Notes: generated by a model not told the origin, from the letters alone. DNA of 22,883 bases from an uncultured Lentisphaeria bacterium (GCA_951812855.1 CATOSW010000002.1:1-22883); one strand, 5' to 3'. Shown: positions 12,234 to 16,393, counted from the first letter of the stretch. A program made the numbers and translations.

Positions 12234-12305
12234 TAGGTGTTGAAAGGATCGAACTTCCGACCATTGTGGTGTAAACACAACACTCTACCGCTGAGTTAAA
12301 CTCCT
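12234..12305 (-). tRNA. trnV: tRNA-Val (anticodon UAC), minus-strand copy
   Basis: The reverse complement matches the plus copy at 16322..16393 at 70 of 72 positions. Anticodon loop tttacac. Acceptor aggagtt/aacacct has an A:A mismatch at 4:69. Confidence 0.88.
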
Positions 12306-12355
12306 AATTTCTCCACATAATCAATATATTTCATACCTTGTAAATAATTGTTATT

Positions 12356-12428
12356 AGCCTTTAGTAGGAATTGAACCCACACTATTTTACTTACAAGGTA
12401 AATGCTCTACCAATTAAGCTATAAAGGC
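12356..12428 (-). tRNA. trnT: tRNA-Thr (anticodon UGU), copy 2
   Basis: Identical to 8756..8828 except A12416 versus G8816, which changes a D-stem C:G pair to U:G. The offset is exactly 3,600 bp. Confidence 0.9.
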
Positions 12429-12437
12429 TTGATATCA

Positions 12438-12456
12438 GCGTACTTTTTTAGTACGC
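12438..12456 (-). other. Stem-loop between the nad1 stop and trnT copy 2
   Basis: gcgtac (12438-12443) pairs with gtacgc (12451-12456). Loop tttttta. Confidence 0.55.
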
Positions 12457-12473
12457 CGCAATTATTCGTTTAT

Positions 12474-13457
12474 TTATATACCACCAAAAGGAGGTAAACC
12501 ATTAAACCCAATAAGAATGCTAGACACTAATACAACAAGGCCTAAACTGAGGGGTAAATATGATTTTCAAAGTAGAGCCATTAATTGATCATATCGAATT
12601 CTAGGGAAAGATGCCCTAACTCAGATGAATAAGAATATTATTAAGGCTGTTTTAATTGCAAATCATACTACACTTCCTTTAAAAATTGACTCCATCATTG
12701 GAGCTTTCCATCCCCCTAAAAATAAAATAGTAGTAAAAGCACTCATTAAAATTATATGACCATATTCAGCTAAAAAAAATAAGGCAAAAGACATTGAAGA
12801 ATATTCTACATTATAACCCGAAACTAGTTCTGACTCTCCTTCTGTTAAATCAAATGGAGCTCTGTTTGTTTCAGCTAAAGCGGAAACAATAAACATAATA
12901 GCAGCGGGAAAAAGAGGAAATATGAATCATATTTTACTTTGAGCTGTTACAATGTCTGTAATGTTTAATGAACCTGCGCATAATACAACAGAAATTATTA
13001 TTAACCCAATTGATACCTCATAACTTACCATTTGTGCTGCTGCCCTAATTGCACCTAAAAAGGCATATTTAGAGTTACTTGCCCATCCTGACATTAATAT
13101 TGAATAAACACTTATTGACGAAACTGCAAATAAGTATAATATTCCTATATTTAAATCACTTAAAACTACATTTTGTGTAAAAGGTATAACAGCTCAAGCT
13201 ATAAAAGCTAAAACTAATGATAAAATTGGAGCCATTATATATATGAAAATGTTAGCATGGTTAGGAATAATCATTTCTTTTGTAAATAATTTTACACCAT
13301 CTGCTATAGGTTGCAATAAACCATATACTCCAACAACATTAGGTCCTTTTCTACACTGCATATACCCTAATACTTTCCGTTCTGCTAAGGTTAAATAAGC
13401 GATTGAGATTAATAATGGGATTATTATTGCTAATATTTTAATTATTGTCGCGAGCAT
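12474..13457 (-). CDS. nad1: NADH dehydrogenase subunit 1
   Basis: ATG at 13457-13455 ([40 protein letters not shown]). The frame links ORFs 13194..13502 and 12663..12896, with gaps checked codon by codon (only TGA). TAA at 12476-12474. 327 aa. Confidence 0.95.
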
Positions 13458-13475
13458 CTCCTTTTTCTTTCTACA

Positions 13476-13548
13476 TTGGTATGGATGGATTTGAACCATC
13501 AACCTTTAAGTTAAAAGCCTACTACTCTACCAATTGAGTTACACACCA
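13476..13548 (-). tRNA. trnK: tRNA-Lys (anticodon UUU)
   Basis: Reverse complement: acceptor tggtgtg/catacca, D-arm actc-aattggta-gagt, anticodon loop cttttaa (stem 4 bp plus a G:A pair), T-arm gatgg-ttcaaat-ccatc. Confidence 0.85.
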
Positions 13549-13550
13549 AA

Positions 13551-13622
13551 ATGCGTTAATAGGATTTGAACCTATATAAGAAGTTTTGCAAACAACTGCA
13601 ATACCAATTATGCTATAACGCA
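13551..13622 (-). tRNA. trnC: tRNA-Cys (anticodon GCA) with an aberrant anticodon stem
   Basis: Reverse complement: acceptor tgcgtta/taacgca (perfect), T-arm atagg-ttcaaat-cctat, anticodon loop ttgcaaa. Stem gttgt/acttc carries two adjacent U:U mismatches. The alternative fold is a 4-bp stem with an 8-nt loop. Confidence 0.75.
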
Positions 13623-13643
13623 ACAATAAGTTTATTTTTTACA

Positions 13644-13713
13644 CGAGGTTACCGGGACTCGAACCCGGATTAATTACTCGACAAGCAAGCGTTTTTCTTT
13701 AAACTATAACCCC
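13644..13713 (-). tRNA. trnD: tRNA-Asp (anticodon GUC)
   Basis: Reverse complement: acceptor ggggtta/taacctc, D-arm gttt-aaagaa-aaac, anticodon loop ttgtcga, T-arm ccggg-ttcgagt-cccgg. Confidence 0.88.
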
Positions 13714-13747
13714 CCTCTTATTTAAACATACATTTATTTTATCTTAA

Positions 13748-13832
13748 AGGAAAGAATGGGATTTGAACCCATGAGCCCACAAAAGGGCTGTTGTTTTCAA
13801 GACAACCGCATTAACCACTCTGCCATCTTTCC
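13748..13832 (-). tRNA. trnS: tRNA-Ser (anticodon UGA) with a long variable arm
   Basis: Reverse complement: acceptor ggaaaga/tctttcc, anticodon stem gttgt/acaac, loop cttgaaa, 17-nt variable arm (agccc...gggct), T-arm atggg-ttcaaat-cccat. 85 nt. Confidence 0.92.
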
Positions 13833-13839
13833 TCCCAAT

Positions 13840-13859
13840 TCGGGCTTAATTTCGCCCGA
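13840..13859 (-). other. GC-rich stem-loop enclosing the cox1 stop codon
   Basis: tcgggc (13840-13845) pairs with gcccga (13854-13859). The 8-nt loop contains the cox1 TAA (13846-13848). Confidence 0.65.
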
Positions 13860-15411
13860 TGCAAACAAAAGGTAACTCATTATATGTATGATGAGCTGGT
13901 GGAGATGTTTGTGCTCATTCTAAAGATGGGTAATAACCATTATCTTCTATTCAACCCATAAATTTTATTTCTTTAGCATAAGCGTCATAAACAATATATA
14001 TGAATCATATTACGCCAATTATTGAGATAGTTGAACCTAAAGAACTAATAAGGTTTCACCCTGCAAAACTATCAGCAAAATCTGAATATCGTCTAGGTAG
14101 ACCAGCTAAGCCTAAAAAGTGTTGTGGGAAGAAAGTTAAATTTACTCCGATAAACATTAGTCAGAAATGTATTTTCCCGTACACTTCATTATAACAATAT
14201 CCGCTTATTTTACCAAATCAGTAGTAGAATCCCCCGAATATCGCAAAAACTGCTCCCATTGATAATACATAGTGGAAGTGAGCTACTACATAATAAGTGT
14301 CGTGTAAAACTATATCTAAAGAACTATTAGCTAATACTATTCCTGTTAGACCACCTAAAGTAAATAAAAATATAAATCCTACCGCCCAAAGCATTGGTGT
14401 ATCTAATCTTAAAGAACCACCGTAAATAGTTGCTAATCAACTAAATATTTTAATTCCTGTTGGAACTGCTATTATCATTGTTGCAGCAGTGAAGTAAGCT
14501 CTTGTATCAACATCCATTCCCACTGTAAACATGTGGTGAGCTCAAACTATAAACCCTAAAATTGCAATTGATAACATAGCATACACCATTCCTAGGTAAC
14601 CAAATATTTGTTTTTTAGCCGAAAAGGTAGGAACTATTTGAGATACCATACCAAATCCTGGTATAATTAAAATATAAACCTCTGGATGACCAAAAAATCA
14701 GAATAAGTGTTGATATAATATAGGATCACCACCTCCAGCGGGGTCAAAAAAGGTTGTATTAAAATTTCGGTCAGTCAATAACATAGTTATAGCACCTGCT
14801 AAAACTGGTAAAGATAATAATAGTAAAAATACAGTTATTAAAATTGATCAAACAAATAGTGGAAGTCGATCCATTGTTATTCCTGGAGCTCGCATATTAA
14901 ATATAGTTGTAATAAAATTTATTGCTCCAAGTATTGATGAAACCCCTGCTAAATGAAGACTAAATATCGCCATATCTACTGATCCTCCTGAGTGTGATTG
15001 TATTCCAGCCAATGGTGGATATACTGTTCATCCAGTACCTGCTCCTTGTTCTACAAAAGCTGAACCTAATAATAAAATTAGAGCTGGTGGTAATAATCAG
15101 AAACTTATGTTATTTAATCGAGGAAAAGCCATATCTGGAGCCCCTATATATAGAGGTAATAATCAATTACCAAACCCTCCTATCATAACGGGCATAACTA
15201 AGAAGAAAATCATTACAAATGCATGAGCAGTAACTATTACATTATATAGTTGATCATCCCCTAGCATTGTTCCAGGTGCTGATAATTCTAATCTTATCAA
15301 CATACTAAACGCGGTACCAATCATACCGGCAAAGGCACCAAATAATAAATATAGTGTACCTATATCTTTATGGTTAGTTGAAAAGAGTCAACGAGCTAAA
15401 TATGGACTCAT
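13846..15411 (-). CDS. cox1: Cytochrome c oxidase subunit 1
   Basis: ATG at 15411-15409 ([25 protein letters not shown]...). A continuous COX1 translation is obtained with TGA=Trp at conserved W positions ([22 protein letters not shown]). TAA at 13848-13846. 521 aa. Confidence 0.97.
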
Positions 15412-15531
15412 GTTATCTCTCTGCACAATAAGTCGTTGGCTCAAATTTCGTACAAATCTGGCGGCTTACACATACCGCGTGATATGCACACAATGGCGGC
15501 CGATAGTGTATGTACATGCTGTAAGATAAAA
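15412..15531. promoter_or_regulatory. Largest non-coding spacer, between divergent cox1 and cox2; candidate control region with bidirectional transcription start
   Basis: This is the only place where the two gene blocks diverge. It appears relatively GC-rich. tggcggc occurs twice (15459-15465 and 15494-15500). There is a palindrome atgtacat (15510-15517) and an inverted pair acatac (15470-15475) / gtatgt (15508-15513). Confidence 0.5.
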
Positions 15532-16281
15532 ATGTCAGTGGATGCACTATGGGGTTTATCCTTGGGGTTTAAAGATGTACCTGAACCGTGACAATTAGGC
15601 TTTCAAGATGCGGCCAGCCCTGTTATGGAGGAGGTTATATATTTTCATGATCAAATAATGTTTATATTAATGATAATCATCACGACAGTATTGTGATTGA
15701 TTATGCGTGCTTTGACTGGTAAACATTATGACAGATATTTAACAGATGGTACTTTAATAGAAATTATTTGAACTCTTATCCCCGCAGCAATCTTAATATT
15801 CATAGCGTTTCCTTCTTTAAAATTATTATATTTAATGGACGAAGTAGTAGACCCAGCCCTAACTATTAAAGCAATAGGGCATCAATGGTACTGATCTTAC
15901 GAATACTCAGACTATCCAACAGACACTTTAGAGTTTGACTCATATATGGTTCCTACATCAGATTTAGAAAGTGGGGATTTAAGATTATTAGAGGTGGATA
16001 ATAGACTAGTCGTGCCAATACAAACACAAGTAAGAGTGCTAGTGACTGGGGCGGACGTAATACATTCATTTGCAGTACCGTCTTTAGGTGTTAAAATAGA
16101 CGCGGTACCAGGGCGTTTAAATCAAACAAGTTTTTTTGTAAAAAGGCCGGGAATATTTTATGGTCAATGTTCAGAAATATGTGGGGCAAATCATTCTTTT
16201 ATGCCTATAGTTGTAGAAGCAGTTTCTTTAGATAAGTATATACATTGAGTAGAGTCTCAAGCTAATGAGCTTACAGACTAG
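15532..16281 (+). CDS. cox2: Cytochrome c oxidase subunit 2 (start ambiguous)
   Basis: The frame of ORF 15946..16248 extends upstream through TGA=Trp to ...[20 protein letters not shown]. In-frame ATGs occur at 15532, 15493 and 15484. I chose 15532 because it gives the usual short N-terminus. TAG at 16279-16281. The CuA site [12 protein letters not shown] is present. Confidence 0.9.
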
Positions 16282-16291
16282 TTATACGTTG

Positions 16292-16308
16292 GGCCCCCTA
16301 ATGGGGCC
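16292..16308 (+). other. GC-rich stem-loop between the cox2 stop and trnV
   Basis: ggcccc (16292-16297) pairs with ggggcc (16303-16308). Loop ctaat. Confidence 0.6.
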
Positions 16309-16321
16309 TGTGCAAGAAATT

Positions 16322-16393
16322 AGGTGTTTAACTCAGTGGTAGAGTGTTGTGTTTACACCACAATGGTCGGAAGTTCGATCCTTTCAACACCTA
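16322..16393 (+). tRNA. trnV: tRNA-Val (anticodon UAC), plus-strand copy
   Basis: Acceptor aggtgtt/aacacct (perfect), D-arm actc-agtggta-gagt, anticodon stem ttgtg/cacaa, loop tttacac, T-arm ggaag-ttcgatc-ctttc. Confidence 0.93.

What the first reader, a model, noticed from the sequence alone, without database searches (positions are those of the whole stretch)
12234..16393. Near-identical inverted trnV(UAC) copies bracket the segment holding the divergent control region
trnV occurs once in each transcription block, at 12234..12305 (minus) and 16322..16393 (plus). The copies match at 70 of 72 nt. The similarity extends 7 nt 5' (agaaatt) and about 5 nt 3' (ataaa), so the repeat is larger than the gene itself. 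That points to recent duplication or ongoing gene conversion rather than convergence. The minus copy has an A:A mismatch at acceptor pair 4:69 and may be the weaker gene.

The copies flank 12306..16321, which runs trnT, nad1, trnK, trnC, trnD, trnS, cox1, spacer, cox2. Recombination between them would invert this roughly 4-kb piece. Because the piece contains the point where the two blocks diverge, every gene would still be co-oriented with a start region afterwards (cox2-trnV-atp8... and ...nad1-trnT-trnV-rnl). Both isomers would therefore be viable, as with chloroplast inverted-repeat flip-flop.
Basis: partly seen in the sequence, partly recalled or inferred. Interest (0 to 1): 0.7.

Follow-up and report, generated by a model that had tools for sequence, protein, structure and literature searches.

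The report
Known inverted trnV duplicate, sponge mitochondrion
The window is the mitochondrial genome of the sponge Oscarella lobularis, and the two near-identical, oppositely oriented valine-tRNA genes are a real but already published feature of this sponge family, in which one sister species has indeed flipped the 4-kb piece between them.

Summary
Two trnV(uac) genes (12234-12305 minus, 16322-16393 plus) match at 70/72 nt. The full inverted repeat is 83 nt, 81/83 identical (12230-12312 / 16315-16397). It is by far the best inverted repeat in this 20,260-bp circular mtDNA.

The genome is Oscarella lobularis (Homoscleromorpha, Oscarellidae). Duplicated trnV and trnT genes are published as typical of the family. 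Ereskovsky et al. 2017 describe a fixed inversion of the fragment between the two trnV copies in O. pearsei.

Chloroplast-style flip-flop is not supported. All 12 trnV junctions on contigs of a long-read (hifiasm-style) O. lobularis assembly are parental, and the orientation is used as a PCR species diagnostic.

"Recent duplication" is ruled out because the duplicate is family-wide. Occasional gene conversion is supported by comparison with a second Oscarella (Logan SRR2835683). Flank and T-loop states differ between the species but are shared by both copies within each, partly by inference from contig break points. The trnT pair shows the same pattern directly.

The minus copy carries two private changes, including an A:A mismatch at acceptor pair 4:69, and looks like the dispensable copy. 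Low novelty.

The parts
12230..12312 (-). Repeat arm A: 7-nt 5' flank, trnV(uac) and 4-nt 3' flank. Its last base is the A of the atp8 start codon.
   Evidence: blastn 83 nt at 97.6% against the other arm; alignment; the repeat finder pair I1
12234..12305 (-). trnV(uac), atp8-side copy. A:A mismatch at acceptor pair 4:69 and a C at D-loop position 16.
   Evidence: ARAGORN; Rfam 59.4 bits; fold with open pair 4:69, -13.9 kcal/mol
16315..16397 (+). Repeat arm B: 7-nt 5' flank, trnV(uac) and 4-nt 3' flank. It abuts the 5' end of rnl.
   Evidence: Rfam LSU model starts at 16397
16322..16393 (+). trnV(uac), rnl-side copy, with a fully paired cloverleaf.
   Evidence: ARAGORN; Rfam 64.4 bits; fold -19.1 kcal/mol
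12313..16314 (.). 4,002-nt segment between the repeat arms: trnT copy 2, nad1, trnK, trnC, trnD, trnS(uga), cox1, divergent spacer, cox2. This is the piece inverted in O. pearsei.
   Evidence: for gene content; PMC5593202 for the inversion in O. pearsei
15412..15531 (.). Divergent cox1/cox2 intergenic spacer, the largest non-coding region and the point where GC skew changes sign. It is a candidate control region; its function is not shown.
12030..12230 (-). atp8 (66 aa, starts MPQLDTVTF), immediately 3' of the minus trnV copy. It sets the 3' limit of the repeat.
   Evidence: code-4 translation; Pfam YMF19 and ATP-synt_8
16397..18897 (+). rnl, immediately 3' of the plus trnV copy.
   Evidence: Rfam LSU_rRNA_bacteria, 1518 bits
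12356..12428 (-). trnT(ugu) copy 2, next to the minus trnV. It is the second family-wide duplicated tRNA and forms a direct repeat, 76/78 identical, with the copy at 8756-8828.
   Evidence: (family D3)
8756..8828 (-). trnT(ugu) copy 1, at the 3' end of rns. Partner of the copy at 12356-12428.
16292..16308 (+). G+C-only hairpin (GGCCCC / GGGGCC, 5-nt loop) in the cox2-trnV spacer, 6 nt upstream of repeat arm B. It is conserved, with a different loop, in the second Oscarella species.

Best explanation
The window is the circular 20,260-bp mitochondrial genome of the homoscleromorph sponge Oscarella lobularis. The feature is the family-wide (Oscarellidae) duplicated trnV(uac).

Layout. One copy lies between cox2 and rnl in the plus transcription block. 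The other lies between trnT/nad1 and atp8 in the minus block. Together they form an 83-nt inverted repeat.

Origin and maintenance. The duplication is old, predating the divergence of the sampled Oscarellidae. The copies stay nearly identical, including a few non-coding flank bases, because occasional homologous recombination or gene conversion between the arms homogenises them (inferred). atp8 and rnl begin directly at the 3' edge of the repeat, so selection there limits how far homogenisation can extend.

Inversion. When such an exchange resolves as a crossover, it inverts the 4-kb interior. Because the interior contains the divergent cox1/cox2 spacer, every gene remains co-oriented, so the product is viable. 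That product is fixed in O. pearsei (published).

State in O. lobularis. Only the standard orientation is seen. Since the last homogenisation the atp8-side copy has picked up two private substitutions, one of which breaks acceptor pair 4:69. I infer that this copy is redundant for decoding and is probably kept mainly as a tRNA-shaped processing signal between nad1 and atp8-atp6. This fits the published decay of this copy to an anticodon-less tRNA-like structure in O. balibaloi.
For: Identity of the genome:
- Bases 1-2623 equal 20261-22883.
- UGA-containing reading frames, tatC, and two opposed gene blocks.
- ATP6 is identical to O. lobularis AGC78763.1 and occurs on contigs up to 22,883 bp.
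- COX2 is identical to the lobularis/tuberculata protein.
- The same molecule is ENA ERZ18545485 ptg000478c, 20,260 bp.

Repeat anatomy.

Family-wide duplication and a fixed inversion:
[quoted passage not shown] Concerted evolution, from a second Oscarella (Logan SRR2835683, about 93% identical over 8.8 kb):
- The cox2-side contig ends 21 nt into trnV with flank TAATAAATA, where O. lobularis has AGAAATT in both copies.
- The atp8-side contig starts with CGGAAGTTCGATTCTTTC..., a T-loop T where both O. lobularis copies have C.
- Logan contigs come from a k=31 graph in which every 31-mer occurs once (PMC12424806). The terminal 30 nt of each contig therefore mark the shared repeat.
- This rule is validated internally. 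The atp8-side contig's first 30 nt end exactly at the TAAA boundary seen in O. lobularis.
- So both copies in that species share the species-specific flank and T-loop state.

The trnT pair shows the same pattern directly. The D loop reads GGCAGAG in both SRR copies and GGTAGAG in both O. lobularis copies.

Only one isomer: all 7 + 5 trnV junctions on O. lobularis contigs are parental, with strict linkage of flank to variant to flank.

Weaker minus copy. The second species has T4 and T16 in its repeat, so A4 and C16 are derived in the O. lobularis minus copy.
Against: Concerted evolution of trnV rests on one comparison species. For each site only one of that species' two copies is read directly; the other is inferred from contig break points.

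In the 5' 21 nt of the gene, the O. lobularis plus copy is closer to its ortholog (21/21) than to its paralog (19/21). Homogenisation is therefore episodic rather than continuous.

Oscarellidae mtDNA evolves very slowly (PMC5633667), so purifying selection alone explains much of the 72-nt identity.

The processing-signal role of the minus copy is inference. No RNA data were available.

Assemblies collapse minority structures, so the absence of recombinant contigs does not exclude low-level isomers.
Confidence: 0.8

Rival explanations
1. Chloroplast-style flip-flop. Frequent recombination between the two trnV arms keeps both orientations of the 4-kb segment present in each individual.
For: The geometry allows it, since both isomers keep all genes co-oriented. 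The inverted form exists and is viable in O. pearsei. The copies show signs of sequence exchange.
Against: All 12 trnV junctions on the primary and alternate contigs of the long-read O. lobularis assembly are parental, and no contig joins cox2-trnV to atp8 or nad1-trnT-trnV to rnl. The two diagnostic mismatches are always linked to their own flanks. The orientation is reported as a PCR diagnostic between sympatric species, which would fail if both isomers coexisted at appreciable levels. From general knowledge of organelle repeats, an 83-nt repeat is about two orders of magnitude shorter than plastid inverted repeats, and repeats this short recombine rarely.
Confidence: 0.08
2. No exchange at all. 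The duplication is ancient, and the copies stay alike only because both are functional tRNA genes under purifying selection in a very slowly evolving mtDNA. The flank identity would then be a conserved processing context or chance.
For: Oscarellidae have exceptionally low mitochondrial substitution rates (PMC5633667). The 5' 21 nt of the plus copy are identical between the two species. The flanks are short, at 7 and 4 nt.
Against: The 5' flank differs between the species (AGAAATT versus TAATAAATA) yet is shared by both copies within each. A T-loop base behaves the same way. The trnT pair shows a directly observed within-species-shared, between-species-different base. Outside the 83 nt the sequences are unrelated. 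The minus copy tolerates a broken acceptor pair here and loss of its anticodon arm in O. balibaloi, which argues against strong selection on it.
Confidence: 0.1
3. Recent duplication of trnV in the O. lobularis lineage.
For: The identity is high (81/83) and has sharp borders.
Against: Both copies, at the same two positions, are described for the family, including O. carmela, O. pearsei and O. balibaloi. The second Oscarella sampled here also has a trnV at both the cox2 side and the atp8 side.
Confidence: 0.02

Closest known systems
Duplicated trnV(uac) of Oscarellidae mitochondrial genomes (Wang & Lavrov 2007; Gazave et al. 2010, including O. lobularis HQ269361; Ereskovsky et al. 2017)
   Same: Same organism group, and apparently the same species. 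Same two positions (cox2-trnV-rnl and nad1-trnT-trnV-atp8), same inverted orientation, and the same accompanying trnT duplicate, tatC and two-block gene order.
   Different: Nothing structural differs. The papers I could read do not discuss gene conversion, concerted evolution or the flank identity: 'recombination', 'conversion' and 'concerted' have 0 occurrences in PMC5593202. Wang & Lavrov 2007 was not available to me.
Inversion between the trnV copies in Oscarella pearsei mtDNA (Ereskovsky et al. 2017, KY682864)
   Same: The same pair of repeats and the same interior (nad1, cox1, cox2 plus tRNA genes).
   Different: In O. pearsei it is a fixed difference between species. O. lobularis shows only the standard orientation in all contigs.
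Plastid large inverted repeat with flip-flop isomers and copy correction
   Same: An inverted repeat in a circular organelle genome. The copies are homogenised, and a crossover inverts the region between the arms without disrupting genes.
   Different: The repeat is 83 nt instead of 10-25 kb. The copies are not identical (81/83). No coexisting isomers were detected. The inversion occurs on an evolutionary scale, not as an equilibrium.
[quoted passage not shown]
   Same: Duplicated mtDNA segments remain more alike within a genome than expected for their age, which implies mtDNA recombination or gene conversion.
   Different: Here the units are short tRNA genes in inverted (trnV) and direct (trnT) orientation, not kilobase-long tandem control regions.

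Membership tests
Oscarellidae-type mitochondrial genome with duplicated trnV(uac) | Circular mtDNA of about 20 kb encoding tatC | tested here: met
   20,260-bp circle. TatC is 99% identical to the O. tuberculata/lobularis cluster and carries Pfam PF00902.
Oscarellidae-type mitochondrial genome with duplicated trnV(uac) | Genes in two clusters of opposite transcriptional polarity | tested here: met
   The plus block runs from cox2 to cob and the minus block from cox1 to trnM. GC skew changes sign at both junctions.
Oscarellidae-type mitochondrial genome with duplicated trnV(uac) | Two trnV(uac) genes, one between cox2 and rnl and one between nad1 and atp8, plus a duplicated trnT | tested here: met
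   matches the description in PMC5593202 and PMC3001884
Functional tRNA-Val gene (each copy) | Cloverleaf with a fully paired 7-bp acceptor stem and a UAC anticodon | tested here: inconclusive
   The plus copy meets it fully. The minus copy has the UAC anticodon and intact D, anticodon and T arms, but an A:A at 4:69. Expression and aminoacylation cannot be tested here.
Flip-flop inverted repeat (plastid IR type) | Both orientations of the intervening segment coexist within an individual | tested here: not met
   12 of 12 junctions on the long-read assembly contigs are parental. Raw reads were not available, so rare isomers are not excluded.
Flip-flop inverted repeat (plastid IR type) | Repeat arms kept identical by copy correction | tested here: inconclusive
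   81/83 within O. lobularis. The second species appears to have identical arms over at least the first and last 31 nt of its roughly 85-nt repeat, by k=31 contig-break inference.
Concerted evolution of duplicated mtDNA segments | Paralogs within a genome share states that differ between species | tested here: met
   trnT pair: a D-loop T (both O. lobularis copies) versus C (both SRR2835683 copies), read directly. trnV pair: two 5' flank substitutions plus an indel, and one T-loop base, with one copy read directly and the other inferred. Only two species were compared.
Concerted evolution of duplicated mtDNA segments | Paralogs closer to each other than to their orthologs over the whole unit | tested here: inconclusive
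   True for the 3' 30 nt and the 5' flank. Not true for tRNA positions 1-21, where the O. lobularis plus copy equals its ortholog and differs twice from its paralog. The middle of the gene in the second species was not retrievable.

The most novel reading that the evidence does not exclude
Short repeats in a sponge mitochondrial genome (83-nt inverted trnV, 78-nt direct trnT) are actively homogenised by gene conversion. The same machinery would then produce low-level inversion isomers, and possibly trnT-mediated subgenomic circles, within individuals. That would make Oscarella a tractable case of ongoing homologous recombination in animal mtDNA.
Probability: 0.15. Interest if true: 0.5.

Novelty: already known. 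Interest (0 to 1): 0.22.

Why it matters
Practical value: trnV and trnT paralogs in Oscarella mitogenomes should not be treated as independent orthologous markers. The cox2/rnl versus cox2/atp8 junction is a known species-diagnostic character.

Conceptual value: the comparison adds modest sequence-level evidence that recombination or gene conversion operates in sponge mitochondria on repeats shorter than 100 nt. That would give a mechanism for the published O. pearsei inversion.

It does not open a new question. The duplicate, its family-wide distribution and the inversion between the copies are all in the literature.

Tried and rejected
1. Public DNA from other Oscarella species. Exact-pattern scans for the trnV 5' and 3' halves found nothing in metagenome contigs or in genome contigs.

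2. Protein searches with COX2, ATP6 and TatC. Only two Oscarella data sets have DNA in the contig collection: the O. lobularis long-read assembly and Logan SRR2835683. All the named species are protein-only records, so a full paralog/ortholog tree could not be built.

3. The trnT-spacer-trnV piece of SRR2835683. It lies between two repeats, would be under 150 nt and has no gene, so it could not be fetched. The nad1 contig stops 30 nt into trnT.

4. P0276, a COX1 in the Oscarella 90% cluster on a 42.8-kb contig. Its genes all lie on one strand in a different order, with no tatC called and none of the two-block layout, so it is not Oscarellidae-type mtDNA and was dropped.

5. Wang & Lavrov 2007, the original O. 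carmela genome paper. It is not held in the library.

6. NUMT-like copies in nuclear contigs as possible fossils of isomer B. All are collinear with the standard order across the trnV sites.

7. The spacers next to the repeat as a possible longer ancestral duplication. Beyond a TGTG motif there is no similarity.

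
Full report
**What the window is.** Bases 1-2623 are identical to 20261-22883, so the window is a 20,260-bp circle with an overlap. Long reading frames appear only when UGA is read as Trp.

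Rfam finds one large and one small rRNA gene and 27 distinct tRNA genes (ARAGORN). The protein genes include atp9 and tatC. The genes form two opposed blocks:
- Plus block: cox2, trnV, rnl, tatC, seven tRNA genes, trnG, trnM, nad2, nad5, trnL, cob.
- Minus block: cox1, trnS, trnD, trnC, trnK, nad1, trnT, trnV, atp8, atp6, trnR, cox3, trnF, rns, trnT, atp9 and onward to trnM.

This is the Oscarellidae (homoscleromorph sponge) type of mtDNA. ATP6 is identical to a GenBank O. lobularis protein and sits on contigs up to 22,883 bp. COX2 is identical to the lobularis/tuberculata protein. The same 20,260-bp circle is contig ptg000478c of ENA assembly ERZ18545485. A mitochondrial genome of this species was published as HQ269361 (PMC3001884).

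**Checking the observation.** The mismatches are at tRNA position 4 (T versus A) and position 16 (T versus C).

Seven bases 5' of the gene (AGAAATT) and four bases 3' (TAAA) are also identical. The inverted repeat is thus 83 nt, 81/83 identical, at 12230-12312 and 16315-16397.

It is the outstanding inverted repeat of the genome: the next is 66 nt at 76%. Its 5' flank run is the longest among all 351 tRNA-gene pairs, and only this pair has runs of 3 nt or more on both sides.

The 3' edge is pinned by function. The last repeat base of the minus arm is the A of the atp8 start codon (Pfam). The plus arm ends where the rnl model begins.

The A:A at acceptor pair 4:69 of the minus copy is real. It costs about 5 kcal/mol and 5 bits of Rfam score.

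The 120-nt cox1/cox2 spacer inside it is the largest non-coding region and coincides with the GC-skew sign change.

**What is already known.**
- Ereskovsky et al. 2017 (PMC5593202) state that a duplicated trnV(uac) is part of the typical Oscarellidae mitochondrial genome.
[quoted passage not shown] - In O. balibaloi the trnV copy between atp8 and nad1 has decayed to a tRNA-like structure without an anticodon arm.
- Gazave et al. [quoted passage not shown]
- Juhling-group work (PMC4783518) lists the extra trnT and trnV for Homoscleromorpha.

As a finding it is not new.

**Testing flip-flop.** I fetched every contig of the O. lobularis long-read assembly (hifiasm-style ptg/atg contig names) that carries atp9, cox2 or atp6. 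They comprise the primary circle, several alternate contigs of 10-22 kb, and some large contigs with embedded mtDNA.

All are collinear with the window across the trnV sites. Of seven minus-copy and five plus-copy junctions, each has its own flanks and its own position-4 and position-16 variants. No contig shows cox2-trnV-atp8 or nad1-trnT-trnV-rnl.

Assemblies hide rare forms, so this sets no tight limit. Together with the PCR-diagnostic use of the orientation, it argues against a plastid-like equilibrium of isomers.

**Recent duplication versus gene conversion.** Recent duplication is excluded by the family-wide distribution.

For concerted evolution I could reach only one other species with DNA: an unnamed Oscarella in Logan run SRR2835683, about 93% identical over 8.8 kb. 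Its TatC is 83% identical. Its mitogenome is broken at the repeats.

- The cox2 contig ends 21 nt into trnV. The preceding flank is TAATAAATA, against AGAAATT in both O. lobularis copies.
- The atp8 contig begins CGGAAGTTCGATTCTTTCAACACCTATAAA. It carries a T-loop T where both O. lobularis copies have C.

Logan contigs come from a k=31 graph in which each 31-mer occurs once (PMC12424806). A contig entering or leaving a repeat therefore carries exactly 30 nt of it. The rule checks out internally: the atp8 contig's first 30 nt end exactly at the TAAA boundary seen in O. lobularis.

It follows that in the second species the repeat spans from -9 to +4. Both copies share the species-specific flank and T-loop base.

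The same logic shows that this species has T at positions 4 and 16 in both copies. The two O. lobularis mismatches are therefore private, derived changes of the minus copy.

The trnT pair gives a directly read example. Both copies have GGCAGAG in the second species, and both have GGTAGAG in O. lobularis.

I conclude that occasional gene conversion homogenises these short repeats. It is episodic, and the evidence comes from two species only.

**Most likely mechanism.**
- Shown: the repeat anatomy, the species identity, the single isomer in assembled contigs, and the weaker minus copy.
- Published: the family-wide duplication, the fixed inversion in O. pearsei, and the decay of the atp8-side copy in O. 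balibaloi.
- Inferred: homologous exchange between the arms explains both the homogenisation and the O. pearsei inversion.
- Inferred: the rnl-side copy is the main decoding gene, while the atp8-side copy is redundant and retained chiefly as a tRNA-shaped processing site between nad1 and atp8-atp6.

**Verdict.** The feature is already described in the literature for this family and species, so interest is low. The only increment is sequence-level support for concerted evolution of repeats under 100 nt in sponge mtDNA.

Noticed in passing
window 1-2623 and 20261-22883: The window is a complete 20,260-bp circular genome plus a 2,623-bp terminal overlap. trnG, trnM, nad2 and part of nad5 therefore appear twice as an artefact of linearisation, not as real duplications.
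   Followed up: yes
window 8755-8832 and 12355-12432: A second near-identical tRNA duplicate: trnT(ugu) as a direct repeat, 76/78 identical and 3.6 kb apart. It is known for the family. Recombination across it would excise rns-trnF-cox3-trnR-atp6-atp8-trnV as a circle. Comparison with SRR2835683 shows a D-loop base shared by both copies within each species but different between them.
   Followed up: partly
window 11173-11250: trnR(ucu) is 76% identical to trnT(ugu) over 78 nt. This looks like the tRNA gene recruitment (remolding) reported for sponges.
   Followed up: no
L001, L002 (ena:ERZ18545485:ptg000124l), L003, L004, L009: Contigs of 100-650 kb in the O. lobularis assembly contain mtDNA stretches of 0.7-14.4 kb at 99.2-100% identity, next to Mutator, hAT and Tc5-type transposase genes. 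One contig has them near both ends, and L003 joins cox1 (14508) directly to trnT/atp9 (8819). These are either very recent nuclear insertions of mtDNA or assembly chimeras.
   Followed up: partly
window 16292-16308 and 1653-1669; L011 1781-1797; L010 about 10209-10232: The only two pure G+C hairpins of the genome sit in the cox2-trnV and nad2-nad5 spacers. The cox2-trnV one is conserved in the second Oscarella with a different loop. That species has a further GC hairpin between tatC and rnl. They may be processing signals or small repetitive hairpin elements.
   Followed up: partly
window 8823-8828, 16393-16397, 12305-12356: The 'primary' copies of the two duplicated tRNAs each abut an rRNA gene: trnT overlaps the 3' end of rns, and trnV lies 3 nt before rnl. 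The two 'extra' copies lie side by side (trnT, a 49-50-nt spacer, trnV). This could be the trace of an ancestral rns-trnT-trnV-rnl junction. I could not test it.
   Followed up: no
window 19829-19899: ARAGORN, run with the bacterial code, labels this gene tRNA-SeC(tca). Under the mitochondrial code used here it is trnW(uca).
   Followed up: yes
window 15436-15531: The automatic gene call for cox2 in the public assembly is 281 aa and starts inside the divergent spacer. The GenBank Oscarella COX2 proteins are 249 aa, starting at 15532. The size of the putative control region depends on this choice.
   Followed up: no
L010 1-60 and L016 2100-2129 (Logan SRR2835683): In the second Oscarella species the two trnT copies share only the 5' 48 nt, up to the anticodon arm, and then diverge. 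One copy there may be degenerating, as described for O. pearsei and O. balibaloi.
   Followed up: no
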